Shown piece by piece: positions 3,115 through 38,374 of a stretch of DNA of 64,000 nt. Position 1 is the first letter of the stretch; each line of letters opens with the position of its first letter. Origin of the DNA: a virus (taxonomy: Duplodnaviria > Heunggongvirae > Uroviricota > Caudoviricetes); the IMG/VR virus record IMGVR_UViG_2651869821_000001; one strand, written 5' to 3'. Both the position numbers and the translations under genes were made by a program. Under the pieces are notes generated by a model that was not told where the DNA came from, ran no database searches, and saw nothing but the letters and a program-made list of their open reading frames with translations.

Positions 3115-3780
3115 ATGACCAGGATCATTGTGGTTGGCGGCACGAAAGGCGGGCCTGGCAAATCTACAGTTGCCCAGCAAATTGCTGTATGCCTAAAAGT
3201 TAAAAAGAAAAAGAAAATCCAAATTACAGATATTGATATTCAGCGCACTACTACTAGCTGGTGTGAAGACCGACGCCAGAATGAAGATCTTGAACTTATT
3301 CCTTTCGCTTATGTGCCTGATGATATTGTAAAACACATCAAATCACTCAAAGGGCGTTTTGAATATGTCGTGGTCGATGCAGGAGGTTTCGACTCCGAAA
3401 TTCAGCGCCAAGTGATGCTGTTGGCGGACTTCATTATCATTCCGCTTCGCCCTAAACGCCGTGATCTGAAATCCCTTCGTGACATTGACCCAATTATAGA
3501 TAACGTTAGGAACGTCAACGAAAAAGTGAAGATCCGAGCAGTGATTAACCAATGCCCGTCACTACCTTCGCAGGCATCCCGTATTCTGGCTGCCAAAGAT
3601 ATTGTGGAAACATTTGGTATAGAGTCCGCCCCCGTTAATCTTTACAACCGTAACGTCTATGACGATGCAGAAGAAGCTGGTCGTTCAATTTTTGAAATGA
3701 CCGGTGCGGAACGTGACAAAAAGGCGGAAGCCGAGTTTGAAGAGTTTGTAGATTACATCTTGAGTCTGGAGGAAAAATAA
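3115..3780 (+). CDS. parA: ParA-family partition ATPase
   Basis: MTRIIVVGGTKGGPGKSTVAQ deviant Walker A, ParA-like length (221 aa), followed by a small basic partner ORF. Confidence 0.7.
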   Translation: MTRIIVVGGTKGGPGKSTVAQQIAVCLKVKKKKKIQITDIDIQRTTTSWCEDRRQNEDLELIPFAYVPDDIVKHIKSLKGRFEYVVVDAGGFDSEIQRQVMLLADFIIIPLRPKRRDLKSLRDIDPIIDNVRNVNEKVKIRAVINQCPSLPSQASRILAAKDIVETFGIESAPVNLYNRNVYDDAEEAGRSIFEMTGAERDKKAEAEFEEFVDYILSLEEK

Positions 3781-4139
3781 TGTCCATGAAAATGGGAGAC
3801 CTTGCTAAGCGCAAAGAGCCGGATGTTCAGGCTAAAAGTAACACACCTATGCGCCAGCCTGTCAGACCACAGGGCCGCCCGACTCGTGGGAAAGAAAAAA
3901 TTAAAAGCCGCACAATGTCGCTGGAAGACGAGTATTTCGAACTGCTGGAGATGATGAAGTTCATCCCTCGTTTCGAAAAGTTCACCCGTTCTGATGTGAT
4001 TCGTGCAGCCATTTTCCATCTGGCTGAGAAGTCGCCGCAGGAGATCGAGGATATCGTGAAGCTGAACGAGGCGATTACGGCTTCTGATGTAACAATGCGT
4101 ACTGATGAAATCAAGCGTGAGTTGATGAAAAAAGGCTGA
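3780..4139 (+). CDS. Small basic protein, likely partition partner (ParB/ParG-like)
   Basis: ATGA overlap with parA stop; lysine/arginine-rich N-terminus, 119 aa. Confidence 0.35.
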   Translation: MSMKMGDLAKRKEPDVQAKSNTPMRQPVRPQGRPTRGKEKIKSRTMSLEDEYFELLEMMKFIPRFEKFTRSDVIRAAIFHLAEKSPQEIEDIVKLNEAITASDVTMRTDEIKRELMKKG

Positions 4140-4169
4140 CAAATTCGGTCTGGTGCTACGATTTCAAGA

Positions 4170-4223
4170 CCTGCTTCCGTATATTAAATAATAAATAACT
4201 TATTAAATATATACGGAAGCAGG
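4170..4223. repeat. 54-bp AT-rich palindrome, copy 1 (identical copy at 52046..52099)
   Basis: CCTGCTTCCGTATATTAAATAATAAATAACTTATTAAATATATACGGAAGCAGG; 16-bp perfect arms extendable to about 27 bp with one mismatch. Confidence 0.85.
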
Positions 4224-4344
4224 CATGTTCTAACCACTACCCACAGACGAAACCCTTGCGTTTCCACTTCCCAAAAGGATCTCCAGTCGCTATGATCTGC
4301 CCATTACGATAAGTAAGTATCTACCTATCAGGCAGGGCGATCGC

Positions 4345-5079
4345 ATGAGTCAGATTTTCTTTAACACTATTGATAACAACCAGTATGACTTCATGACCGA
4401 GTGGAGCACCGTAGTTATGGACAAGTGGGTGGCTGAAAATATCGGTCTCTCACGATGCAAAGATGAAGCTGATCTGTATGAAACAAAGTGGTTCGATTAT
4501 CGCGACATGCACCCACTCATGGCCACTTGCCTTTTTACAGAAGCATACAAACGCCAGTACTCCTACATCATGTTGTCGCACGGTCGAGAGCATTTTGAAA
4601 CGGCTATTTATACGACAGGTCTTAAACGTCTGCCGTATCAGGAGTTGTCTTCAGTTAATAAAACTTCTCTCTGGAAAGCACGACAGTTTGCAGATAGGTA
4701 CTGCTGCTCATACGACTACTTCATATCCACTGTTCTGTCAGCGGCAGCAAGACGCTTATGGGACAAATTGCCACGCCCTCAACATCTATGGCAACCGGAG
4801 TTAGTGGAAATATTTGAGAAGAAATTAGCCAAACGTTACGAGACGCGTCTGGATGACTCACTGGTGAGTTTTAAACACATGGGAGACATGCAGCATGACC
4901 CGATACAAGAACGCTATTTCGAATGGGTTCTGGAGCGTTTGCGTGGCATTACGCGAGCCAAACGCATCCGGATCATTCTCTCCGCAGTATGGTTGATGGA
5001 ACTTGTGCCTGAGCGGGTAATTATTGCCAATTTTCCGGAAGAACTGGAAGAAGCAAGGCGTCTTGTTGATCCCCTCTAA
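4345..5079 (+). CDS. Hypothetical protein
   Basis: 244-aa ORF in the main plus-strand coding frame; preceded by an ATAAGTAAGTA-type motif. Confidence 0.45.
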   Translation: MSQIFFNTIDNNQYDFMTEWSTVVMDKWVAENIGLSRCKDEADLYETKWFDYRDMHPLMATCLFTEAYKRQYSYIMLSHGREHFETAIYTTGLKRLPYQELSSVNKTSLWKARQFADRYCCSYDYFISTVLSAAARRLWDKLPRPQHLWQPELVEIFEKKLAKRYETRLDDSLVSFKHMGDMQHDPIQERYFEWVLERLRGITRAKRIRIILSAVWLMELVPERVIIANFPEELEEARRLVDPL

Positions 5080-12070: not shown

Positions 12071-12145
12071 TGCGAAATTGATGGTGTAGCTCAGTGGTAG
12101 AGCGGTTGACTGTTAATCAACTGGTCGGTGGTTCGAATCCACCCA
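12071..12145 (+). tRNA. tRNA-Asn (anticodon GTT), CCA encoded
   Basis: Hand-folded cloverleaf: acceptor GATGGTG/CATCATC (one G-U), D arm GCTC-AGTGGTA-GAGC, anticodon arm GTTGA-CTGTTAA-TCAAC, T arm GGTGG-TTCGAAT-CCACC, discriminator G, CCA. Confidence 0.85.
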
Positions 12146-12147
12146 TC

Positions 12148-12339
12148 ATCGCCAATGTGCATATGTCTCATAACCTGGAGCAAGGTTTAGCTGGCCAAGC
12201 GACGAAGGGTGAAGCCGGGTGGCTGGATTGAGCGGTTGGGAAGTGAAAGTCTTAATGAAATCTCCCAGAAATATCCGGATGAGTAAGAGAGAAAGTAAAA
12301 AGGATGAGTAATGGAGCAGGTCAGGTTCGAATCCTGGTA
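12148..12339 (+). ncRNA. tRNA-like element: 5' acceptor half and 3' T-arm/acceptor/CCA separated by about 180 nt (interrupted or intron-containing tRNA?)
   Basis: GTGCATA starts 2 nt after tRNA-Asn. 192 nt downstream lies TCAGG-TTCGAAT-CCTGG-TATGCAC-G-CCA, where TATGCAC is the exact complement of the 5' 7-mer. I could not fold a complete cloverleaf in between. Confidence 0.25.
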
Positions 12340-17653: not shown

Positions 17654-17915
17654 AGTTAAACCTTGCGTGTTTTGTTTATCTCTGGTAAGTGCTTACCGAT
17701 ATTACAGTAAAGGCTAGGGTTGTAAAGACTTATCTATCTATTTTAGAAGGCATCAAAGTACTTGCCAAGCGGCAGTATAACACGGCTCAAGTTACTTATC
17801 TTGCCTGGTTATGAAGGAGAAAAGTGAGATATATCTGATATAGATATATTTAGTTTTGATACAATAGGTAGTAGTATTTGATAAAATTTAACCGTGTTCA
17901 GTTGGATGATATGAA

Positions 17916-18128
17916 ATGAAAAATATTACTTCTGATTTGACCGCCCTTGAGGTTGGAACAGCTTATGCGCTAAAAGAGGAAAATGCCGCGACAATTCTTA
18001 CCGAGTTCCCAGCTGTTGAGCTACCCCTGGACATGAACGATGCAACCGCATTCAAGTTTGAGTATTGCAACAAGCGCTTCACTTTGATTAACACCGGCTG
18101 CGGCTCAATAGCAGTTAGAACGAATTAA
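17916..18128 (+). CDS. Hypothetical small protein
   Basis: 70-aa ORF after the divergent promoter region. Confidence 0.35.
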   Translation: MKNITSDLTALEVGTAYALKEENAATILTEFPAVELPLDMNDATAFKFEYCNKRFTLINTGCGSIAVRTN

Positions 18129-18236
18129 CCTAACTTCCCACCTCCGTGACCTGTACGAACAGTTTTGATGCCTGTTCGTACAGCGCTAAATTACTAACAC
18201 AAGAAAACAAATTGTTTTAGCGACAAGGAAAATCTC

Positions 18237-20510
18237 ATGTCTAAAGCTCCGACCAAAACTGTATTGAAAGAGGTACAGGACTTTCGCGACTGTGTAAAAC
18301 GTGTAGTGGCAATGTTGTCTGGTAAGCAGATACCAGTGGCAGAACGAGGCAATGACGCTTTTGTACGTTACAACAAGCGCGGAGAGCCTGTACTGGTAAA
18401 TATTCCATCGATCCCAGACGATGCAACACCAACACTAATGAACGCAGTGCGAGGTTTTCTTGACCATGAAGTGGCTCATATACTTTTCACAGACACTCTT
18501 GTGGCCATAAAGATGCGTAAAAAAGGTAAGGCACCATCTGCAGGTTTGTGGAACGCACTGGAAGATGTCTTCATTGAGCGTAAAATGGGTCAGGTTTTTA
18601 ACGGAACACGTCGTAACTTACTTGCTACACAAAATCTAATCATCGATAAGTATTTCAAAACAAAAGTGCCAGAAGCCGTCTCAATATGTCACGGTAATCA
18701 GCGCGATCTATTTCTTAAATTTTTCCTTTGCCCTGTTGTACGTGCCTGGGATGGACAAGCCCCGTTTATTGAATTTATGGAAAAGTACTGGCATCTGATC
18801 GCAAAGCCTGTGGCTTTGTTGAAAGAGCATGGGGTAGATGTTGCCGTTCGAAACATGTCTAGCACAGAAGACTGCGTCAAAGTGGCCGCTGCAATAGCCA
18901 CATTAATGAAAGACATGAAGGAGAATCCAGAAGATGAATTACCTAAGCTAAAATCCTCCGTAAAAAAATCTCCCAAAAGTGAAGAGGAGACGGAAGTAAC
19001 TACCGAGTCACCCGAAGAATCATCTACAGAACGAGTAAAAGCTAAAGATGATAGAGAGTCGACGGATGACAAGAAAGCGAAAGAAGATCGAAATGATGGT
19101 CGCGAAGAAGGGTCAGAAACAGACGATTCTGGTGTGTCTGAATCATCAAAATCAGTAGATAGGGACTTACCTACAGACGATAAAGATATAAGTGACACAG
19201 ATAATAATACTACAGAAGCAGGCGCAGACGATCTGTCGACTCCTGCGGATGGCATTCATGACGACGCTGATATTTCAGATGGCTATGGCTCTGATGAAGA
19301 CAGTGATAGTACAACAGGTGGAACTGCTGGTGAGTCGGAAGAAACCGGTGAGAAAGCAGACGACAAATTTGATGAAGGTAGTGAGAAAAAAGAAGACACA
19401 GAAACAACTCAAGAAGGTGACTCTGGTTTAACGCCTACGACAGATGACATGACATTAGAAGACGCTCTCAAGGCACTTGATGAGATGGAGGACGCGGTGG
19501 GCGAAATGACTGAGGACGCACTGTCGGCAACTATTAGTAAAGAGCTTACAAGCACATCTCTTTCAGACTATCGGCCATACGATCGTTCATACGATTTTAT
19601 AGGCTCTATAGATGATGCAGAAGGACACATAAAACGTACTCAAAAAGTGTTCGGCGCCATACCTCTTCATTACCCAATCGATCGTTATCGCATTGTCACT
19701 GAAGGTAGTAAGTTGTTTGAGAGAAGAATTGAGCGATATCTGTCTTCTGGCGTTTCCTCTACTCTTGCTAAAGATCTGGAACGTGCGATTGCAAGTCGCA
19801 ATCGCACACAGTTTATCCCTGGCCAACGTCGTGGTCGAATACACGGTTCAAGTTTGTATCGCTTATCAATGAAGGATGAGCGTGTATTTCGCAGGAAGGA
19901 AGACCACAAGGCTGTTAACGCTTGCGTTCAGCAGGTGATTGACTTGTCTGGTTCAATGAATGGCAAAAAAATACTATTGGCACTTGCCAGCGCCTACACC
20001 ATTGCCGATGCGCTTGATCGCATCAATGTGCCTAACATCATTACCGGCTTTACCACATTCGGGAATCCTGACAGTAGCGACAGGTCGAAACGTGGGTTTT
20101 CGCGCTTCGAAGCATTGATGTTGCCTATTATTAAAAACTGGAACGAAAAGGCTAACGCGCCAGAAATTCGTGCTCGTATGGGGTGCGTCAGTACTACCTT
20201 CCCTCTTCTCAACAACGTTGATGGAGAGAGCATAGTGCAACTGGCATCTCTATTCTCTGGCAGAACGGAAGATCGGAAGATCATGCTGGTTTTGAGTGAC
20301 GGCGTGCCATGTGCTACCGGAGAGGGATTTAAGGAGCATTTGAAGGCTACAACTAAAGAAATCGAAACAGTTAGCGATATCGATCTTATGGCTATAGGCA
20401 TACTAACTGATGCACCAAAGTTTTTTTATAAAAACTATGCTTTAGTGAAAAGTGTGGAGCAACTAGGTTCATCGGTAGTAACCGAGCTTTCTCGTATCAT
20501 TCTTAGCTAA
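18237..20510 (+). CDS. vWA-domain protein (CobT-like) with long acidic low-complexity linker
   Basis: C-terminal MIDAS motif VIDLSGSMNG and vWA-like fold cues; residues about 230 to 430 are D/E/S/T-rich low complexity. Confidence 0.65.
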   Translation: MSKAPTKTVLKEVQDFRDCVKRVVAMLSGKQIPVAERGNDAFVRYNKRGEPVLVNIPSIPDDATPTLMNAVRGFLDHEVAHILFTDTLVAIKMRKKGKAPSAGLWNALEDVFIERKMGQVFNGTRRNLLATQNLIIDKYFKTKVPEAVSICHGNQRDLFLKFFLCPVVRAWDGQAPFIEFMEKYWHLIAKPVALLKEHGVDVAVRNMSSTEDCVKVAAAIATLMKDMKENPEDELPKLKSSVKKSPKSEEETEVTTESPEESSTERVKAKDDRESTDDKKAKEDRNDGREEGSETDDSGVSESSKSVDRDLPTDDKDISDTDNNTTEAGADDLSTPADGIHDDADISDGYGSDEDSDSTTGGTAGESEETGEKADDKFDEGSEKKEDTETTQEGDSGLTPTTDDMTLEDALKALDEMEDAVGEMTEDALSATISKELTSTSLSDYRPYDRSYDFIGSIDDAEGHIKRTQKVFGAIPLHYPIDRYRIVTEGSKLFERRIERYLSSGVSSTLAKDLERAIASRNRTQFIPGQRRGRIHGSSLYRLSMKDERVFRRKEDHKAVNACVQQVIDLSGSMNGKKILLALASAYTIADALDRINVPNIITGFTTFGNPDSSDRSKRGFSRFEALMLPIIKNWNEKANAPEIRARMGCVSTTFPLLNNVDGESIVQLASLFSGRTEDRKIMLVLSDGVPCATGEGFKEHLKATTKEIETVSDIDLMAIGILTDAPKFFYKNYALVKSVEQLGSSVVTELSRIILS

Positions 20511-30839: not shown

Positions 30840-31664
30840 ATGCCTAACCATGTAACTAATGAGATCCGCGTTGTTGGTGGAACCAATAAGCAACGCCTTG
30901 CTTTCATACGAGCCATTACCAATAAATTCGGACTCATTGACTTTAACAACATTTGCAAACGCCCAAAAAGTATGGACATCGAAGAAAGCGGTGCCGTTGA
31001 AGCAATGGCGACAGCCATTGCTGGATATCCTATGAGTAATTTCTATTTTGGCGAAGTCAAAACGCCAAAAGAAGTTGAACTCGATCTGATTCAACGTGGA
31101 ACCACTCAGAAATATCTCCGTAAGATAAAGGCCCACGCACTGCTTCGCATTGAGAATAAGCGTCGTTACGGTTTTTATTCATGGTACGACTGGTCACGAG
31201 CTAATTGGGGAACCAAGTGGAATGCGTATAGCGTAGAAATGCCTATAAAACGCGTCAAACAACGAATCAAGTACGGACACGAACACCGCAAAACTCATGT
31301 TCGAGCATATGCAAAGCGCCTGTTTAAAAAACGTTTGGCGAGACACGCTATAAGTGGTGGTGATTTGGTTATTCGTTTCGATACAGCCTGGAATTGTCCT
31401 GAACCAGTTTATCACGTACTGGCAAGTCGCTTCCCTCATCTAGAATTCATCGTTCATTACGCTGACGAGGATATAGGTAGTAACTGCGGCTCTATTGTTC
31501 TTCGTGGAGGCAAATTGGATTCCGAAGATATTGCGCCACCATATAGCGAACAATCACCAGAAGAAAAATTGAAATGGCGAAAATTCGCCTTTGAATTGTG
31601 TCACCCTGGAGCTACACCACAAGAATACAACATGGATGAAAATTATGAATATTTGAATGAGTAA
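30840..31664 (+). CDS. Hypothetical protein with Trp-rich motifs
   Basis: 274 aa; YSWYDWSRANWGTKWNA and RFDTAWNCPEP motifs. Confidence 0.5.
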   Translation: MPNHVTNEIRVVGGTNKQRLAFIRAITNKFGLIDFNNICKRPKSMDIEESGAVEAMATAIAGYPMSNFYFGEVKTPKEVELDLIQRGTTQKYLRKIKAHALLRIENKRRYGFYSWYDWSRANWGTKWNAYSVEMPIKRVKQRIKYGHEHRKTHVRAYAKRLFKKRLARHAISGGDLVIRFDTAWNCPEPVYHVLASRFPHLEFIVHYADEDIGSNCGSIVLRGGKLDSEDIAPPYSEQSPEEKLKWRKFAFELCHPGATPQEYNMDENYEYLNE

Positions 31665-31721
31665 TTTCATACATAAAAATATGAAGTAACTATAACCGTT
31701 AATGATATTTCAAAACGTTTA

Positions 31722-32474
31722 TTGAACCAAGAGAGTGATATGAACAATCGTAAAAGTGAAGCTCCGGTAACAACAATTAACAAACACGGAGAAACCATCC
31801 AGTCACACCCAGCATTCGGTCTTGTTAAAACGAACCGTGTACACACCACAGGTATTCGTTTATTCGATTCTGAACTGGATCACCAGGAATACATTGAAAT
31901 CGGGATCTACGAGGCGGAGATGGTGATGTATCGCGAGCATCCTGCCCCACGAAGAAGCCCAGAAAGGCGCCGACCTGTCGTTGAATTTCGACTCAGCCAG
32001 GCACAATGGGCCGCAATGGTTAGCAGCTTCGGGGTTGGTGATGGTGTGCCCTGTACCATTTCTTACCGGAGTTTGGGGCAGGCAGAAAGGCTGCCAGGTA
32101 TTACGGAACAAAAAAGTGTTCGTGACAAGTTCAAATCGCAGATAGAGACCACAACAGCCAAAGAAATTGAGAAGATCAAAGACGAAGTTGCTCGTCTTGG
32201 CGACTTGGTTAAAAAGGGTAGAGCTGGCAAACGTGAACTTGAGGATGTCTACACATCGCTTCGTGCCGCTACTGTCAACCTTCCCTCTAATTTGTCATTC
32301 GCCACCAAGCTGATGCAAGAGTCGATGGATAAAATCGTCTCCTCTGGCAAGGCAGAAGTTGAAGCATATATCTCCGGCGCTGCGATGCGAGCAGGAATGA
32401 TTGAGCTGTGTGAAAGGCAAAATGATTTAGATATCAGTATACAAAAACTGTTAGATAAAGAGGATGGTCGATGA
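31722..32474 (+). CDS. Hypothetical protein
   Basis: 250-aa ORF in the main frame. Confidence 0.45.
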   Translation: MNQESDMNNRKSEAPVTTINKHGETIQSHPAFGLVKTNRVHTTGIRLFDSELDHQEYIEIGIYEAEMVMYREHPAPRRSPERRRPVVEFRLSQAQWAAMVSSFGVGDGVPCTISYRSLGQAERLPGITEQKSVRDKFKSQIETTTAKEIEKIKDEVARLGDLVKKGRAGKRELEDVYTSLRAATVNLPSNLSFATKLMQESMDKIVSSGKAEVEAYISGAAMRAGMIELCERQNDLDISIQKLLDKEDGR

Positions 32475-32842
32475 AAAACTACTCCGAAATGACAGACTTT
32501 GAGATCAATTGCCTCGTTGCAGAAGCTACTGGCCATCGACCGTTAATCTCCCAATACGGCTGGAAGGGTTCTCAGGAGGGGGATTACACAGCAGTAATTG
32601 CGATCGGCCCAAACGGAGCTGGGTCTTTCGACTGGTGCAACGATCCTGTCGATGCCTGTGACATCATTTTCAAAAATAGAATCGGCGTAATCCCAGCAAA
32701 ACAGCCAGATGAGTGGAGAGCAGCCCATAGAAGAGTAGACGACTCCACACCACAGCATTTAATTCAGAACACAAACCCTTTCAGGGCTGCAATGATTGTA
32801 TTTCTTTTAATGCAGGAGAAAAAAAGTGAAGAAACTGTATGA
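32471..32842 (+). CDS. Hypothetical protein
   Basis: ATGA overlap with the upstream gene; 123 aa. Confidence 0.4.
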   Translation: MKNYSEMTDFEINCLVAEATGHRPLISQYGWKGSQEGDYTAVIAIGPNGAGSFDWCNDPVDACDIIFKNRIGVIPAKQPDEWRAAHRRVDDSTPQHLIQNTNPFRAAMIVFLLMQEKKSEETV

Positions 32843-33236
32843 CGCGGCCAATGCTGCGCTGGATGTAGTGGATATCGAAATTGCCCAGGGTTTCCCGGAG
32901 CCAGAATGGGCGACGCAGCTGCGTGAAGCGATTGCGGAAATGAACGCACCGGAACAGTCAGAAGATGAAGCCGACTGGCAGCGTTTCGTCAGAATGTACG
33001 CGGAAGAGATTGGCCCGACGCCAACCGCAGAACAGGCCATGCTGCTCAAGTACTTCAAGGAGGCTGGAGACAATCTGCCGGTCGACGATACACCGCACTG
33101 GTTTCACGCCGCCTGGCGTAAGTTCGACGTGATCTACACCCGCGGTCTGGGAAATAAAGATATGGTCGTCTGGCATCTGATGCACATTGATAAGGCTGTC
33201 GACCGCACGCTGGAGAAGTTCTTTCCACCAGCCTGA
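32826..33236 (+). CDS. Hypothetical acidic protein
   Basis: 136-aa ORF, overlapping start with the upstream gene. Confidence 0.4.
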   Translation: MKKLYDAANAALDVVDIEIAQGFPEPEWATQLREAIAEMNAPEQSEDEADWQRFVRMYAEEIGPTPTAEQAMLLKYFKEAGDNLPVDDTPHWFHAAWRKFDVIYTRGLGNKDMVVWHLMHIDKAVDRTLEKFFPPA

Positions 33237-33304
33237 ACACAATGATTGTGCGCCGCATGGCGCACAATAATATAAATAAGTACTTACCAACAAGGAGAAA
33301 ACAC

Positions 33305-33580
33305 ATGAAGATTTTGGTTCGCATTTCAGCCAGCATTGACTATGACGCTTACCCGTTGTTCATGGTCAAGTGCGACGGGCTAAACGATGAAGAAATTCAA
33401 GCGGCAATTGAGCGCAATCTCGTTGAGTACACTGGAAAGGATGCAGATTCTGTGTATATCGATGATGACGGTGTTTGTTGGTACAACGGTAGTTTCTGGT
33501 ACGTCGAAGACAAGATGCCTGTAAGCGATGAGGACTCGGCTCATCTTGAGCGCATTTTAGGCATCAGCACTTTTGAGTGA
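33305..33580 (+). CDS. Hypothetical protein
   Basis: Start chosen at ATG 33305 with AAGGAGAAAA RBS (track ORF 33242..33580). Confidence 0.4.
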   Translation: MKILVRISASIDYDAYPLFMVKCDGLNDEEIQAAIERNLVEYTGKDADSVYIDDDGVCWYNGSFWYVEDKMPVSDEDSAHLERILGISTFE

Positions 33581-34344: not shown

Positions 34345-34395
34345 ATGTAAGCTGACTGCGATGAGCATCGCAGTCAATATCATGTAAAAAAGTAC

Positions 34396-34930
34396 CGCTG
34401 GCAGCATACACAGGAAGTTCTCGATAGATGTTCACCGCTGACAGCATACTAAAGTCGAATTTTAGATACGTATCTACCGTTGATAGCATACGCAAAGTTC
34501 GATGAAGACTATTTTCATCGGATTTTTAAATGTAAGCATGATCTGGTCAAAAATACCGCTGATAGCATATTACGGCTAAAAATGGGTCGCTATATACCGC
34601 TGGTAGCATATCCAAACGGAATATCACTCCTAAACTACCGCTGACAGCATACGTTAAACAAGATACATACAGATAGTTACATTCGCTGATACGAAAGCGT
34701 ATATCATCAGTGAAAGAATGTTAGTGAACACAAACATAGATGTGATGCGGTCTGTGAGGTTAGTAACCACTGGGTAATAGGTAGGAATAGATTGTGTGTG
34801 TTAAATTTCTACCGCTGACAGCATACTGAAATGTCAAAGTACCGCTGACAGCATATGTTTTACCGCTGGCAGCGTACTTTGGGCGTTAAACTACCGTTGA
34901 CAGCATACCTTTTGCCGTTGACAGCATATC
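34396..34930. repeat. Iteron array downstream of repA: about 11 copies of TACCGCTGACAGCATA in two clusters (incA-like)
   Basis: Copies at about 34396, 34430, 34469, 34552, 34595, 34635, 34810, 34841, 34860, 34890 and 34912, with 1 to 3 mismatches; both orientations are not seen (all direct). Confidence 0.85.
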
Positions 34931-36026: not shown

Positions 36027-36047
36027 GTGGATACCTTTCTCGTTCAA

Positions 36048-36150
36048 CCGCTGACAGCATACGTTATTTACCGCTGACAGCCTACAAAAAACAGACAACA
36101 GCATATTGCTTGCCGCTGACAGACTATCTTTTACCGCTGACAGCATACAC
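36048..36150. repeat. Iteron array upstream of repA (origin / incC-like), 4 to 5 copies
   Basis: AACCGCTGACAGCATACG, TACCGCTGACAGCCTACA, a partial copy, GCCGCTGACAGACTATC, TACCGCTGACAGCATACAC. Confidence 0.8.
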
Positions 36151-36338
36151 GAATGCTCTCTCAGACCAGTCACGGCGCGGCTTACAGCGATCGGGGATCT
36201 ATTAGGATCTATTTATGGATCTCTATAGGGATCTTATTATTAGGATCTATCCAGTGGATAATGTGGATAAGTAAAACAGGCATTTACGAAAATCTGTATA
36301 CCTTGTGCGGTATCGTATCCAAGACAATAACGAGCAGA

Positions 36339-36992
36339 ATGACAAACATGGATTTAAAACGCACGCGCTGGGTTCGCCGTCTTGAGGATGGTTCTTACAC
36401 CATCGAGTCGAACGGCACCCTTAACAAACAGAAATTACTCTGTGACCTTTGTGGTATCGCATCGAAATGCCCAATTAATGAGGCCCGCTTAAAGCTTCAT
36501 AATGCCGGCGCACACTTCCACCTTAACAGTTGCGTCAGATATGTTCCGCTGCTGACATTTCGCAAACCGATCATCGGATTAGACGCCCCCTACTTCAACA
36601 CGCTTCGTTCTGGTGTTACGTGGAAAGAAAGAGTTGAACCTGGCAAGCTCGTTTGTCTGGTCGAAGCTGAAAGAGGAAGTATCATCCGGTTCGGTAGAGT
36701 CGATAAAGTTTACTCCGGCCCGGTGGATGAGATGCTACGGAAACACAGCCGGTTTAACCATCTCTGCATGGGCGGAGAGAAGATCGAGAAGGTTGGCGAA
36801 GTGATCCGCAAATCCTACGGACATTTCCTGAATGATGATAGCCTTCTCACAGCCATATACATCCGCCATGTTGATCGGGAGTTCGATATGGAGTATCACA
36901 GTGCTGAAGAATTAGATCTTGTCGACTCTCGTCCAAAAGCTGGGGTAATTGATATCAACACAGCGCGTCAGAAGCCACTAGCAGAAAAATAA
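36339..36992 (+). CDS. Hypothetical protein
   Basis: Track ORF 36153..36992 begins inside the iterons; start more likely at ATG 36339 or 36348 (MTNMDLKRTRW). Confidence 0.45.
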   Translation: MTNMDLKRTRWVRRLEDGSYTIESNGTLNKQKLLCDLCGIASKCPINEARLKLHNAGAHFHLNSCVRYVPLLTFRKPIIGLDAPYFNTLRSGVTWKERVEPGKLVCLVEAERGSIIRFGRVDKVYSGPVDEMLRKHSRFNHLCMGGEKIEKVGEVIRKSYGHFLNDDSLLTAIYIRHVDREFDMEYHSAEELDLVDSRPKAGVIDINTARQKPLAEK

Positions 36993-37288
36993 GTGGTTTA
37001 GCGAGTATTTGCCCAAGTAAAAGTTAGCGCCCATTACAGTGGCGCTCTGGAGATTTAAAGATAGTCTCTGGTGACAATTCGACCACCTGTAACAGCAAAA
37101 TCTACGCCCCACTTCTCACAATGCTTATGCAGACAATACCTGCAACCTCATAAAATAAGTATGTAATTACTTATATTATTTGTCATAATCATATGCCTCT
37201 ACATTTCCTTTATCGTCTTGCTGTCTGGATTGTTCGCCTCACAAGCACGCATAAAATCTGTATCAAAATGAGCACGAAGGAAAAACAT

Positions 37289-38374
37289 ATGACTGTTCCA
37301 TACGGGGTAATTTCAGATCCCCATTATCATCGTTGGGATGCTTTTGCGACAACAAACGCTGACGGCTTGAACTCCAGACTGGAGATTCAACTCGACGCCA
37401 CCAAAGAAGCTGCGAAAGCCATGAAAGCGGCCGGTTGCAAGTACATGTTGGTGGCTGGCGATACGTTTCATGTTCGTGGCGCCGTATCGCCTTCTGTTCT
37501 GCATTTCGTCACGGAAACATACGAATGGATTATCAAAGAGCTTGGCCTCAAAGTAGCTATGTTGGCGGGCAATCACGACCTTGAAACAAATGACTCCGTT
37601 TACAGCGCTAACGCCGCGGCATCTTTGCGCTCGATTGGGGTGGAAATCGTCTGCGGCAAACGCCCCCATACCATCAAAATGGGCGATGTTTCAGTCCATA
37701 TGGTGAGCTGGCGAAACAACCACGCGGAACTGATTAGCGACCTGAAGACGCTGCGGTCTGGTCTGGACGACGGAAAGCATGACGTTGTAGTGCATACCTC
37801 GATCAACAAAGCCATTCCAACCATGCCTGATGTGGGCATAGACGCGCAAGAACTGAAAGACATTGGCTTTCGCCTGCTGCTGTCCGGGCATTACCACAAC
37901 CACAAAGAGGTGCTGCCTGGCGTCGTGAGTATCGGCGCTCTGACACACCAGAATTGGGGAGATGTAGGCTCGCTGGCTGGCTTCATGATTGTCAACCCTG
38001 ACGGCACATTCACCCACCACGAAACCTCCGCACCCAAGTTCGTGAACCTTGAGGACGATGTGGAAGACGATCAAATCCGCGGTAACTACGTGCGCTTCCG
38101 TGCCGTTGTTGAGAGCGATGAAGAAGGCATCAAACTCAAGAACGTCCTGAAAACAATGGGCGCGAAGGGAGTCGTCTGCAACTTCATCCGCAAGGCATCG
38201 ATGATGGAAGGCACTGCCAGTACTGCGGAGACCAGCAAAATAGACAGCCTGGGCGAGTCCGTCGCCGCGTACTGCAAGATCATTCACGACACTGACGGCG
38301 GCTTCGACCTGAGCAGGTTGGATATGCTGTGTCAGGAAATCCTGACAGAAGCGGAGAGTGCGGAGGCAGTGTGA
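37289..38374 (+). CDS. SbcD/Mre11-family nuclease
   Basis: Calcineurin-like phosphoesterase motifs GVISDPHYH, VAGDTFH, LAGNHD, VVHTS, SGHYH; start chosen at 37289 with AAGGAAAA RBS. Confidence 0.8.
   Translation: MTVPYGVISDPHYHRWDAFATTNADGLNSRLEIQLDATKEAAKAMKAAGCKYMLVAGDTFHVRGAVSPSVLHFVTETYEWIIKELGLKVAMLAGNHDLETNDSVYSANAAASLRSIGVEIVCGKRPHTIKMGDVSVHMVSWRNNHAELISDLKTLRSGLDDGKHDVVVHTSINKAIPTMPDVGIDAQELKDIGFRLLLSGHYHNHKEVLPGVVSIGALTHQNWGDVGSLAGFMIVNPDGTFTHHETSAPKFVNLEDDVEDDQIRGNYVRFRAVVESDEEGIKLKNVLKTMGAKGVVCNFIRKASMMEGTASTAETSKIDSLGESVAAYCKIIHDTDGGFDLSRLDMLCQEILTEAESAEAV

What the first reader, a model, noticed from the sequence alone, without database searches (positions are those of the whole stretch)
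4170..4223. Identical 54-bp AT-rich palindrome present twice, 48 kb apart (4170..4223 and 52046..52099)
CCTGCTTCCGTATATTAAATAATAAATAACTTATTAAATATATACGGAAGCAGG occurs with 54/54 identity after the parA-partner operon and after the Dam-like methyltransferase gene. Perfect 16-bp GC-clamped arms (extendable to about 27 bp with one mismatch) around an AT-rich centre would form a very stable hairpin or cruciform. Copy 2 is followed by CTTTTTAG (terminator-like); copy 1 is not followed by a T run. Exact conservation of so long an element at two loci suggests selection beyond simple termination: a partition (parS-type) or regulator-binding site, an RNA processing or stability element, or a recombination hotspot that could invert or delete the intervening 48 kb.
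Basis: seen in the sequence. Interest (0 to 1): 0.6.

Follow-up and report, generated by a model that had tools for sequence, protein, structure and literature searches.

The report
Repeated terminator-type hairpin of SSU5-like phage-plasmids
The two identical 54-bp palindromes are copies of an unannotated hairpin found at three fixed intergenic positions in SSU5-like phage-plasmids; it most likely acts in the RNA as a transcription terminator or 3'-end hairpin, and the copies are identical here because they have been copied onto each other.

Summary
The same 54-mer sits at 4170-4223 and 52046-52099, and nowhere else in the window. The window is an SSU5-like phage-plasmid, 99.4% identical to Salmonella plasmid AnCo3. 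AnCo3 has a third copy 116 bp upstream of its terS-like gene.

The element occupies the same three slots (c1 after the parA operon or cargo, c2 after the Dam gene, c3 before terS) in nearly all relatives sampled: 78/80, 72/72 and 73/73 gene-anchored loci. It was found in about 800 plasmids and is almost absent from E. coli chromosomes.

A TTTT run follows the stem on the sense strand at c1 (72/78) and c2 (65/72), but never at c3. Distant relatives carry unrelated ordinary GC-hairpin/T-tract terminators in the same slots.

The best reading is a paralogous family of strong RNA hairpins (-25.8 kcal/mol) acting as intrinsic terminators. Copy 2 fits this. Copy 1 has recently lost its T tract.

Exact identity is specific to this lineage. 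A sister genome has the same C-to-T change in both copies, which points to gene conversion. No deletion or inversion junction was found.

A parS, pac or cruciform role is not excluded, above all for c3. Interest is modest.

The parts
4170..4223 (+). Copy 1 of the 54-nt hairpin element (slot c1). It lies 30 nt after the parA-partner ORF and is not followed by a T tract (CATGTTCT).
   Evidence: Exact match. Fold is a 15-bp stem, 4x3 internal loop and 6-bp stem. The orthologous slot is occupied in 78/80 relatives, and 72/78 of those have TTTT after the stem. The loss of the T tract is confined to the AnCo3/window lineage.
52046..52099 (+). Copy 2 of the hairpin element (slot c2), 27 nt after the Dam-like methyltransferase gene.
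   Evidence: Exact match. The orthologous slot is occupied in 72/72 usable relatives. RNA hairpin energy is -25.8 kcal/mol.
52100..52107 (+). T tract (CTTTTTAG) directly after the stem of copy 2. Together with the hairpin it gives the architecture of an intrinsic terminator.
   Evidence: Sequence. TTTT lies within 9 nt of the stem in 65/72 orthologous c2 loci, and AAAA upstream in 0/72.
52025..52031 (+). Outer inverted motif, left half (GTCTGGG), 14 nt upstream of copy 2.
   Evidence: TCTGG upstream together with CCAGA downstream is present in 66/72 c2, 69/73 c3 and 43/78 c1 loci. The reversed control gives 0-1.
52120..52126 (+). Outer inverted motif, right half (CCCAGAC), 20 nt downstream of copy 2. 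It pairs with 52025-52031 in the predicted fold of a read-through transcript.
4147..4153 (+). Outer inverted motif, left half (GGTCTGG), upstream of copy 1.
4240..4248 (+). Degenerate right half of the outer motif downstream of copy 1 (CCCACAGAC, which has one extra base relative to CCCAGAC).
   Evidence: only 5 bp, GTCTG/CAGAC, remain complementary.
3115..3780 (+). parA: a small Walker-type partition ATPase (221 aa). It is the first gene of the operon that ends at copy 1.
   Evidence: Pfam AAA_31, MipZ, CbiA and ParA. Annotated as AAA family ATPase in AnCo3.
3780..4139 (+). The 119-aa partner ORF of parA, a candidate centromere-binding protein of unknown family. Its stop codon is the left edge of the cargo slot that ends at copy 1.
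   Evidence: No Pfam or PDB match, PHROG 5111 of unknown function. Low-confidence model with helices at 48-60, 70-84 and 88-118. Homology with SSU5 stops exactly at 4139 and resumes at 4163.
4309..4328 (+). 20-bp palindromic motif (ATAAGTAAGTATCTACCTAT) of a separate repeat family. It lies 86 nt after copy 1 and 17 nt before the next gene, and probably marks the restart of transcription.
   Evidence: The family gives 23 matches in the window against 0.06 expected.
4345..5079 (+). First gene after copy 1 (homologue of SSU5_038). It is the conserved right flank of slot c1.
51425..52018 (+). Dam-family N6-adenine methyltransferase gene, the last gene before copy 2.
   Evidence: Pfam PF05869, E = 6e-37.
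52207..52434 (+). First gene after copy 2 (75 aa, PHROG 5343).

Best explanation
The two palindromes are members of a three-copy paralogous family of roughly 110-nt intergenic modules that is specific to SSU5-like phage-plasmids. Each module has a short outer inverted motif (TCTGG...CCAGA) around a 52-57-nt hairpin. The hairpin has 15-bp GC-clamped arms and an AT-rich centre.

The modules sit at the ends of three large co-directional gene blocks:
- c1, after the late/lysis/parA block and any cargo genes.
- c2, after the replication and nucleotide-metabolism block, which ends with Dam.
- c3, after the ParB/Srx-ABC operon and just before terS.

I infer that they act in the sense transcript as very stable hairpins. 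Where a U tract follows (copy 2 here, and c1 and c2 in about 90% of relatives) they terminate transcription like an intrinsic terminator. Where it does not (copy 1 here, and c3 everywhere among close relatives) they are at best leaky terminators. In those places they may instead act as barriers to 3' exonucleases or as processing sites.

The exact identity of the two copies in this window is a by-product of gene conversion between copies in this lineage. It does not reflect selection on the exact sequence.

Shown: the anatomy, the fixed slots, the T-tract statistics, the replacement by ordinary terminators in distant relatives, and the co-variation of the copies. Inferred: that termination or RNA-end formation actually happens.
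For: 1. Identity of the replicon. The window is 99.4% identical to plasmid AnCo3 and about 83% to phage SSU5.

2. Fixed slots. About 95 elements found through one arm all map to three orthologous slots. In gene-anchored samples the element is present in 78/80 (c1), 72/72 (c2) and 73/73 (c3) loci.

3. Strand-asymmetric T tract. TTTT lies within 9 nt after the stem in 72/78 c1 and 65/72 c2 loci. AAAA lies before the stem in 5/78 and 0/72.

4. Functional replacement.
- In K. oxytoca pCAV1099-111, c1 and c2 keep only a half-remnant of the element, together with an unrelated GC hairpin with a T-rich tail.
- In the same plasmid, c3 is a diverged hairpin followed by T8.
- Acinetobacter, Aeromonas and Pseudomonas-phage relatives have unrelated canonical terminators directly upstream of terS.

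5. Context. All flanking genes are co-directional and each copy begins 27-30 nt after a stop codon. A promoter- or operator-like repeat follows copy 1.

6. Stability. The RNA hairpin is -25.8 kcal/mol, against -10 to -14 for ordinary terminators in the window. z-scores are -5.5 to -8.9.

7. Pairing.
- Alternative Watson-Crick pairs occur at stem positions 5, 6, 8 and 9, and they differ between copies of one genome.
- G-U in the sense strand outnumbers the antisense kind, 47 to 16 cells.

8. Conservation. The palindrome is an island of conservation (0.85-1.0) within intergenic DNA at 0.3-0.6.

9. Gene conversion. The sister genome UViG_2600255169 has the same C8-to-T change in both c1 and c2. 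Other lineages have non-identical copies.
Against: - Copy 1 in this window and all 73 c3 copies lack a T tract. A plain intrinsic terminator therefore cannot be the whole story.
- c3 is the best conserved copy.
- The covariation is not statistically significant. 95.0% of cells are paired, against 94.5% after shuffling. Position 9 takes all four combinations freely, so the arms may be kept for their sequence and not only for pairing.
- The sense-strand G-U bias is reversed at c2 (9 against 13 cells), and it rests on few independent events.
- An AT-rich centre of constant length and composition is not needed by a terminator. It is what would favour cruciform extrusion or protein binding.
- The first conservation profile and the first sample required one perfect arm, which is an ascertainment bias.
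- No transcript data were available.
Confidence: 0.58

Rival explanations
1. The palindromes are DNA sites for a protein encoded by the element. Candidates are dispersed centromeres (parS) for ParA and its 119-aa partner, in the manner of the dispersed sites of plasmid-prophage N15. Other candidates are sites for the ParB/Srx proteins encoded upstream of c3, or a terS/pac recognition site at c3.
For: - Arm positions 1-3, 7 and 11-13 never vary, and variation clusters at the same symmetric positions 5, 6, 8 and 9 in both arms.
- Covariation is not significant.
- No iterated repeats that could serve as a classical centromere were seen near parA.
- c3 lies 116-134 bp upstream of terS, has no T tract, and is the most conserved copy.
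- The SSU5 and Cyrano GenBank records are linearised inside c3.
Against: - The T tract at c1 and c2 is one-sided and has no role in a binding site.
- Within one genome, different copies carry different paired substitutions: pJN2-26 has T5-A at c1 and T8-A at c2. That does not fit one protein reading one sequence.
- pCAV1099-111 keeps parA and its partner, yet its c1 and c2 palindromes are reduced to half-sites.
- pMT1 keeps c3 without this par operon.
- c1 stays with the downstream gene and not with parAB when cargo is inserted.
- Three cos sites would cut the genome into sub-genomic pieces.
- The Cyrano start is 1 nt from that of SSU5, so that record was probably rotated to match SSU5.
Confidence: 0.15
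2. The hairpin acts in RNA, but mainly as a processing or retroregulation signal and not as a terminator. The roughly 21-bp interrupted helix is extended in read-through transcripts by the outer TCTGG/CCAGA helix. It would be an RNase III substrate, or an exonuclease barrier that sets the stability of the upstream mRNA, as phage lambda sib/tI and the phage T7 RNase III sites do.
For: - The outer inverted motif is conserved at all three slots, and its right half lies beyond the T tract. It can therefore pair only in read-through RNA.
- c3 and window copy 1 lack T tracts but keep the hairpin.
- The helix length is about two turns with an internal loop.
- The sense-strand G-U bias at c1 and c3 is 38 to 3 cells.
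Against: There is no direct evidence of cleavage. The outer motif is only 5-11 bp and is degenerate at window copy 1. In distant relatives the slot holds plain short terminators without such an outer helix.
Confidence: 0.15
3. The element has a DNA-structural or selfish nature. It could be a cruciform-forming palindrome that serves as a recombination or gene-conversion hotspot, or the relic of a MITE-like insertion (outer motif as terminal inverted repeats) that persists without a function for the host element.
For: - GC-clamped arms around an AT-rich centre are the design that favours cruciform extrusion (established knowledge). The DNA hairpin is -16.2 kcal/mol, z = -9.2.
- Gene conversion between copies is visible.
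- Chimeric arm combinations occur, with a canonical left arm and an alternative right arm.
- The outer inverted motif resembles terminal inverted repeats.
- c1 is the exact right border of a cargo hotspot with at least 9 different inserts.
- The element encodes SbcCD-like and recombinase genes.
Against: - There is no presence/absence polymorphism, and no copies outside the three slots, in about 320 loci.
- No deletion or inversion junction between copies was found.
- The element is held as an island of conservation across Salmonella, Escherichia, Klebsiella, Enterobacter, Citrobacter, Cronobacter and Yersinia plasmids. That argues for function.
- It is almost absent from host chromosomes: 4 of 1273 places in E. 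coli.
Confidence: 0.1

Closest known systems
Rho-independent (intrinsic) transcription terminators of enterobacteria and their phages
   Same: The stem-loop begins 27-30 nt after a stop codon in a co-directional gene array. The base of the stem is GC-rich. A sense-strand T tract follows directly after the stem at copy 2 and in about 90% of c1 and c2 orthologues. Ordinary terminators replace the element in distant relatives.
   Different: - It is about twice as long and twice as stable as the ordinary terminators of the same genome.
- It has a 24-nt AT-rich interrupted upper part.
- It is present as three near-identical paralogues that undergo gene conversion.
- One slot (c3) and window copy 1 have no T tract.
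REP/BIME and ERIC repeated extragenic palindromes of Enterobacteriaceae
   Same: They are repeated, transcribed, intergenic imperfect palindromes. By established knowledge they can stabilise upstream mRNA against 3' exonucleases and can act as weak terminators.
   Different: Those families are chromosomal, with tens to hundreds of copies. This element is confined to one family of phage-plasmids, with three fixed copies, and is almost absent from E. coli chromosomes (4 of 1273 places). No sequence relation was found (Rfam).
Phage lambda tI/sib retroregulator and phage T7 RNase III sites
   Same: A phage hairpin at the end of a gene is extended by sequences beyond the terminator, so that read-through RNA forms a longer helix. 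That is the arrangement suggested here by the outer TCTGG/CCAGA motif around the hairpin and T tract.
   Different: This is a resemblance of architecture only. RNase III cleavage was not tested, there is no sequence similarity, and there are three copies per genome.
PeSL (promoter-early stem-loop) cassettes of T4-type phages
   Same: They are repeated intergenic stem-loops next to variable genes. Here c1 is the right border of a cargo slot with at least 9 alternative inserts.
   Different: No recombinant junctions between copies were found. Only one of the three slots borders variable DNA. No promoter is embedded in a conserved way.
Dispersed centromere sites of plasmid-prophage N15 (sopC-like inverted repeats)
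   Same: In a phage-plasmid, several copies of one palindrome are scattered over the genome. One lies next to a partition operon and one lies near late genes.
   Different: N15 sites are short perfect palindromes bound by a large ParB-type protein (established knowledge). Here the arms are 24 nt apart, the partner protein is a small uncharacterised protein, and a one-sided T tract follows two of the three copies. Binding was not tested.

Membership tests
Intrinsic (Rho-independent) terminator | Stable GC-containing stem-loop in the sense transcript. | tested here: met
   15-bp stem (10 of its pairs in the GC-rich base) plus a 6-bp upper stem. RNA energy is -25.8 kcal/mol, and z is -5.5 to -8.9 with flanks.
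Intrinsic (Rho-independent) terminator | U-rich tract directly 3' of the stem. | tested here: inconclusive
   Met at copy 2 (CTTTTTAG) and in 72/78 c1 and 65/72 c2 orthologues. Not met at window copy 1 (CATGTTCT) or at any of 73 c3 copies.
Intrinsic (Rho-independent) terminator | Position at the 3' end of a transcription unit, on the coding strand. | tested here: met
   The copies lie 30 and 27 nt after stop codons and all neighbouring genes are on the + strand. Unrelated canonical terminators occupy the same slots in distant relatives.
Intrinsic (Rho-independent) terminator | Measured release of transcripts at the site. | not testable with these tools
   No transcript data were available.
Plasmid centromere (parS / type Ib parC-like site) | Specific binding by the partition protein. 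| not testable with these tools
   The 119-aa partner has no family assignment and its model has low confidence.
Plasmid centromere (parS / type Ib parC-like site) | Co-inheritance with its par operon. | tested here: not met
   pMT1 keeps c3 but lacks this parA operon. pCAV1099-111 keeps the operon, but its c1 and c2 hairpins are reduced to half-remnants. Cargo insertions separate c1 from parAB.
Plasmid centromere (parS / type Ib parC-like site) | The same recognition sequence at all sites of one replicon. | tested here: not met
   In pJN2-26 the three copies carry different arm pairs: T5-A at c1, T8-A at c2 and a mismatch at position 6 of c3.
REP/BIME/ERIC host repeats | Many copies dispersed in the host chromosome. 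| tested here: not met
   E. coli complete genomes give 1269 places on plasmids and 4 on chromosomes, in 260 of 5426 genomes.
MITE | Terminal inverted repeats. | tested here: inconclusive
   The outer TCTGG/CCAGA motif is conserved, but it is only 5-11 bp long and its spacing varies.
MITE | Presence/absence polymorphism and copies at varied sites. | tested here: not met
   All elements lie in the three orthologous slots, and the slots are filled in 78/80, 72/72 and 73/73 loci.
MITE | Target-site duplications. | not tested
   Not examined.
cos/pac packaging site | Located next to the small terminase gene. | tested here: inconclusive
   This holds for c3 only (116 bp upstream of terS in AnCo3). 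Neither window copy is near terS.
cos/pac packaging site | Virion DNA ends map to the site. | not testable with these tools
   The SSU5 and Cyrano records are cut inside c3. The two cuts are 1 nt apart, and no end-mapping data were found.
Tyrosine-recombinase core site (lox/dif type) | Inverted arms separated by a 6-8 bp spacer. | tested here: not met
   The arms are separated by 22-27 nt. Recombination between direct copies would delete essential genes, and no such junction was seen.
RNase III processing site | About two turns of double-stranded RNA. | tested here: met
   Predicted 15 + 6 bp with an internal loop, extendable by the outer helix in read-through RNA. This is a prediction only.
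RNase III processing site | Cleavage in vivo or in vitro. | not testable with these tools
   No data.
Any curated RNA family (Rfam 15) | Score at or above the gathering threshold. | tested here: not met
   Only sub-threshold miRNA-like hairpin hits were found.

The most novel reading that the evidence does not exclude
The three hairpins are more than terminators. In this reading they form a dedicated cis-acting DNA/RNA system of SSU5-like phage-plasmids. The T-tract-less copy upstream of terS (c3) would be the packaging or late-switch site, or a site bound by the adjacent ParB/Srx proteins. The other two copies would be kept homogeneous with it by programmed gene conversion, and c1 would act as the landing border of the cargo-gene hotspot.
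Probability: 0.15. Interest if true: 0.6.

Novelty: new member of a known kind. Interest (0 to 1): 0.3.

Why it matters
SSU5-like phage-plasmids are common in clinical Enterobacteriaceae. About 5% of complete E. coli genomes carry this element, and these replicons carry accessory and resistance genes.

A conserved, never-annotated hairpin that divides the genome into three transcription blocks gives a first map of their transcription units. It also marks the exact right-hand border of the cargo slot after parAB. It offers a handle for engineering, as a strong portable terminator, and for typing.

It is also a clean small example of concerted evolution of dispersed non-coding repeats within a phage genome. 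It warns assemblers and annotators that contigs, and even reference records such as SSU5, tend to break at this repeat.

If c3 proved to be a packaging or regulatory DNA site, the interest would rise.

Tried and rejected
- **Further copies in the window.** None were found at up to 3 mismatches, and there are no extra half-sites.
- **Rfam.** No family matched.
- **Literature.** No paper describes the element or contains its arm sequence. Two papers were not held in the library.
- **Genome-contig scan with terS.** It returned only 4 close relatives, so it was uninformative.
- **Host repeat (REP/ERIC).** Rejected because the element is almost absent from chromosomes.
- **Recombination hotspot causing deletion or inversion.** No chimeric flanks were found in about 95 elements.
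- **lox-like site for the element's tyrosine integrase** (AnCo3 17891-18997). Rejected because the spacer is 22-27 nt and the sites are direct repeats around essential genes.
- **Promoter inside the palindrome** (TTGAGA-18-AATAAT at 52039-52068). Rejected because the -35-like flank is not conserved between slots or lineages.
- **Small RNA gene ending at the hairpin.** Rejected because only 30 nt separate the stop codon from copy 1.
- **Covariation as proof of structure.** Alternative pairs exist, but the shuffle control is not significant, so it is used only as weak support.
- **Strand bias of G-U pairs.** It is suggestive at c1 and c3 but reversed at c2.
- **Structure of the 119-aa partner.** The model confidence is too low to assign a fold.
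- **Cyrano genome ends as independent evidence for a cos site.** They lie 1 nt from the SSU5 ends, so the record was probably rotated to match the reference.

Full report
**The observation**

The 54-mer CCTGCTTCCGTATATTAAATAATAAATAACTTATTAAATATATACGGAAGCAGG is present at 4170-4223 and 52046-52099. Both copies are on the + strand with no mismatch. No third copy appears at up to 3 mismatches, and none in shuffled sequence. Identity extends one base on each side, and similarity falls off within about 8 nt (family D7).

The perfect arms are 15 bp, not 16. The predicted fold is a 15-bp stem, a 4x3 internal loop, a 6-bp A/U stem and a 5-nt loop. It is not a 27-bp arm with one mismatch. The hairpin energy is -25.8 kcal/mol as RNA and -16.2 as DNA (z = -9.2). 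That is about twice the stability of the ordinary short GC terminators found elsewhere in the window.

Copy 1 starts 30 nt after the stop codon of the 119-aa ORF that follows a small Walker-type ParA. Copy 2 starts 27 nt after a Dam-family methyltransferase gene. Copy 2 is followed by CTTTTTAG and copy 1 by CATGTTCT.

**What the window is**

The region is 99.4% identical to Salmonella Derby plasmid AnCo3 and about 83% identical to Salmonella phage SSU5. It matches more than 700 'plasmids' of Klebsiella, Escherichia, Enterobacter, Salmonella, Citrobacter and Cronobacter. This is the SSU5 group of phage-plasmids.

AnCo3 carries a third copy with one mismatch at record position 80603-80657, outside the window. 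It lies 116 bp upstream of the terS-like gene.

A 76-nt query around copy 1 finds 796 plasmid records, with several places each, including Yersinia pMT1. In complete E. coli genomes it finds 1269 places on plasmids and only 4 on chromosomes, in 260 of 5426 genomes. It is never under an annotated feature. Rfam has nothing. No paper in the library describes the element or contains its arm sequence.

**Three fixed slots**

A scan of IMG/VR with one arm gave about 95 elements. Every one maps to one of three orthologous positions relative to SSU5:
- c1, upstream of SSU5_038 and after parAB and any cargo.
- c2, between the Dam-like gene SSU5_088 and the next gene.
- c3, between the last small gene of the ParB/Srx-ABC operon and terS.

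That sample required a perfect arm, so I repeated the survey anchored on the neighbouring genes only. The element is present in 78/80 c1, 72/72 usable c2 and 73/73 usable c3 loci.

The three slots divide the genome into three blocks:
- structural, lysis and parAB genes;
- replication and nucleotide-metabolism genes;
- a mixed regulatory block.

Yersinia pMT1 has lost the c1 and c2 regions and this par operon. It keeps only c3.

**Anatomy beyond the 54 nt**

A short outer inverted motif flanks the hairpin. (G)TCTGG(GAG) lies 18-27 nt upstream and (CTC)CCAGA(C) lies 14-34 nt downstream. Both halves are present in 43/78 c1, 66/72 c2 and 69/73 c3 loci. The reversed arrangement occurs in 0-1.

In the window the motif is intact around copy 2 (52025-52031 and 52120-52126) and degenerate after copy 1. 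The right half lies beyond the T tract, so in RNA this outer helix could form only in read-through transcripts.

**Evidence for a terminator-type role**

- A TTTT run lies within 9 nt after the stem in 72/78 c1 and 65/72 c2 loci. The mirror-image AAAA before the stem occurs in 5/78 and 0/72. This one-sided feature on the coding strand is the hallmark of an intrinsic terminator. A symmetric DNA-binding site has no use for it.
- In the more distant K. oxytoca plasmid pCAV1099-111 (terS 64% identical), c3 is a diverged version of the hairpin with new base pairs at the foot and a T8 tract. c1 and c2 retain only a right-half remnant of the element. Next to each remnant is an unrelated short GC hairpin with a T-rich tail.
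- In Acinetobacter, Aeromonas and Pseudomonas-phage relatives (terS about 30% identical), the slot before terS holds unrelated canonical GC-hairpin/T-tract terminators. The function of the slot therefore outlives the sequence.
- The element is an island of conservation (0.85-1.0 pairwise identity) in intergenic DNA that is otherwise 0.3-0.6 identical. That profile used the arm-selected sample.

**Pairing versus sequence**

In the gene-anchored sample the variable stem positions are 5, 6, 8 and 9. Alternative Watson-Crick pairs occur at each: T-A, G-C, T-A and T-A. Within one genome (Klebsiella phage pJN2-26), different copies carry different paired changes. That is hard to reconcile with one protein reading one sequence.

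G-U pairs compatible with the sense transcript outnumber those compatible with the antisense, 47 to 16 cells. The ratio is 38 to 3 at c1 and c3.

I do not lean on this, for two reasons. The formal control shows no significant covariation: 95.0% of cells are paired, against 94.5% after shuffling. Position 9 takes all four combinations at about the frequencies expected from independence. The G-U bias is also reversed at c2.

**Why the two copies are identical**

Identity is not general. In SSU5 the three copies differ from each other at several positions. Over 11 genomes, centres are 0.82 identical between slots of one genome and 0.81 identical between genomes at one slot.

Homogenisation is visible in particular lineages. 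In one E. coli lineage c1 equals c3. In the AnCo3/window lineage c1 equals c2, and c3 differs by one base. In the sister genome UViG_2600255169, c1 and c2 are again identical to each other, but both differ from the window by the same C-to-T at stem position 8. This is the signature of gene conversion between sites 48 kb apart.

Chimeric arm combinations in other lineages point the same way. These combine a canonical left arm with an alternative right arm, and the reverse.

The conversion tract in the window coincides with the palindrome: 56 nt are identical and the flanks differ. I found no deletion or inversion junction. All elements have flanks from a single slot.

**What does not fit**

All 73 c3 copies and window copy 1 lack a T tract. 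A close relative, the S. Anatum plasmid, still has TCTGTTTTAG after c1. The loss at window copy 1 is therefore recent.

c3 is nevertheless the best conserved copy. It precedes two copies of another motif (AAACAARTTGKTT) and a separate small GC hairpin with a T tail directly in front of terS.

The AT-rich centre keeps its length (22-27 nt) and composition, although a terminator does not need it.

These points keep two alternatives alive. One is a DNA-level role, such as protein binding, a pac-type site at c3, or cruciform extrusion. The other is an RNA-processing role.

The SSU5 and Cyrano GenBank records are both linearised inside c3. The two cut points are 1 nt apart, and no end-mapping data were found. 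I regard this as an assembly or rotation convention and not as evidence for cos.

**The parS idea**

The ParA is of the small type. Its partner has no family or solved homologue. A single-sequence model is of low confidence (pLDDT 59). No iterated repeats were found near parA, so there is no better centromere candidate.

Several observations argue against the palindrome as the centromere:
- c1 stays with the downstream gene when cargo is inserted after the partner ORF. SSU5 has 1.9 kb there, and other relatives have 0.8-2.0 kb of at least nine different gene sets, including GIY-YIG, KAP NTPase, Sel1 and DUF2971 proteins.
- pCAV1099-111 keeps the par operon, but its c1 and c2 hairpins have decayed.
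- pMT1 keeps c3 without the operon.

I put the whole class of DNA-site explanations at about 0.15.

**Verdict**

The finding is a real, conserved and apparently undescribed repeat family. Its most likely nature is ordinary: strong terminator-type hairpins that delimit the three main gene blocks of SSU5-like phage-plasmids. In this lineage they are kept identical by gene conversion.

Copy 2 has the full terminator architecture. Copy 1 is a recently weakened member.

It is a new member of a known kind, of modest interest. The unresolved role of the T-tract-less copy before terS is the part most worth an experiment.

Noticed in passing
window 1450, 4309, 7759, 11350, 14041, 26123, 29660, 33600, 37155, 41843, 46590, 51394, 53613, 57099 (20-bp sites): A family of 20-bp palindromic sites, ATAAGTA-N6-TACTTAT, gives 23 strand-matches against 0.06 expected. 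Many lie 15-60 nt upstream of start codons, for example 4309-4328 before the ATG at 4345 and 51394-51413 before the Dam gene. They look like operators of a master repressor or a phage-specific promoter element. A similar motif occurs before terS in an Aeromonas relative (L131).
   Followed up: partly
window 3065, 5096, 18203, 30808, 44280, 54405, 55387, 58518, 63539; also L001 20694-20733: A second motif family, GAAAACAARTTGTTT, gives 14 matches against 0.66 expected and has a palindromic core. It lies upstream of parA, the helicase gene and other operons. Two copies lie between c3 and terS. It is possibly the binding site of a late or middle regulator.
   Followed up: partly
window 34388-34911 and 36041-36151: At least 11 iterons with core TACCGCTGACAGCATAC lie in two clusters next to the RepB-type initiator gene (AnCo3 36650-37867). 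This is presumably the plasmid origin.
   Followed up: no
window 4140-4169 (empty site); SSU5 31522-33450; loci L024, L028, L044, L045, L064, L084, L089, L108, L115: The interval between the stop codon of the ParA-partner ORF and hairpin c1 is a cargo hotspot. It is 30 nt in this window and 0.8-2.0 kb in relatives, with at least nine different gene sets in either orientation. These include a GIY-YIG-like protein, a KAP-family NTPase, a Sel1-repeat protein, DUF2971 proteins and unknowns.
   Followed up: partly
L001 20735-20765 (AnCo3), SSU5 1-134, Cyrano L136 95-125: A separate small GC hairpin (GAGCRC...GYGCTC) with a TGTGTTTTAG tail sits immediately before the ribosome-binding site of terS. 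It is conserved with loop variation in Salmonella, E. coli and Klebsiella relatives. The arrangement recalls a late-operon attenuator or antitermination target.
   Followed up: no
NC_018843.1 / JQ965645.1 ends (L004 end, L002 start); OV696614.1 ends (L136, L137): The linear GenBank records of phages SSU5 and Cyrano begin and end inside hairpin c3, and their cut points are 1 nt apart. Several IMG/VR contigs also end at or near copies of the repeat. The repeat probably breaks assemblies.
   Followed up: partly
L134 34253-34580 and L135 36534-36715 (K. oxytoca pCAV1099-111): Slots c1 and c2 of this distant relative share a roughly 40-nt sequence, AAAGATTTTAAAAAGAGCTTTAAATACTATCYRGAGCMAGG. It corresponds to the centre and right arm of the hairpin without the left arm. 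These are half-remnants kept at both slots, next to new ordinary terminators.
   Followed up: partly
window about 17900-19006 (AnCo3 17891-18997): A tyrosine-type site-specific integrase gene is present here and in pMT1, pCAV1099-111 and pJN2-26, but is not annotated in SSU5. It may be the multimer-resolution or integration enzyme. Its target site was not sought.
   Followed up: no
window 12080-12151: A tRNA gene (Rfam tRNA, 75.5 bits), annotated as tRNA-Asn in SSU5 and pJN2-26.
   Followed up: no
NC_003134.1 90244-90258 (pMT1, L124): A single arm-like 15-mer, ATATACAGAAGCAGG (one mismatch to the right arm), lies inside the porphyrin-biosynthesis-like gene of pMT1. No equivalent half-site exists in the window. 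It is probably chance.
   Followed up: partly
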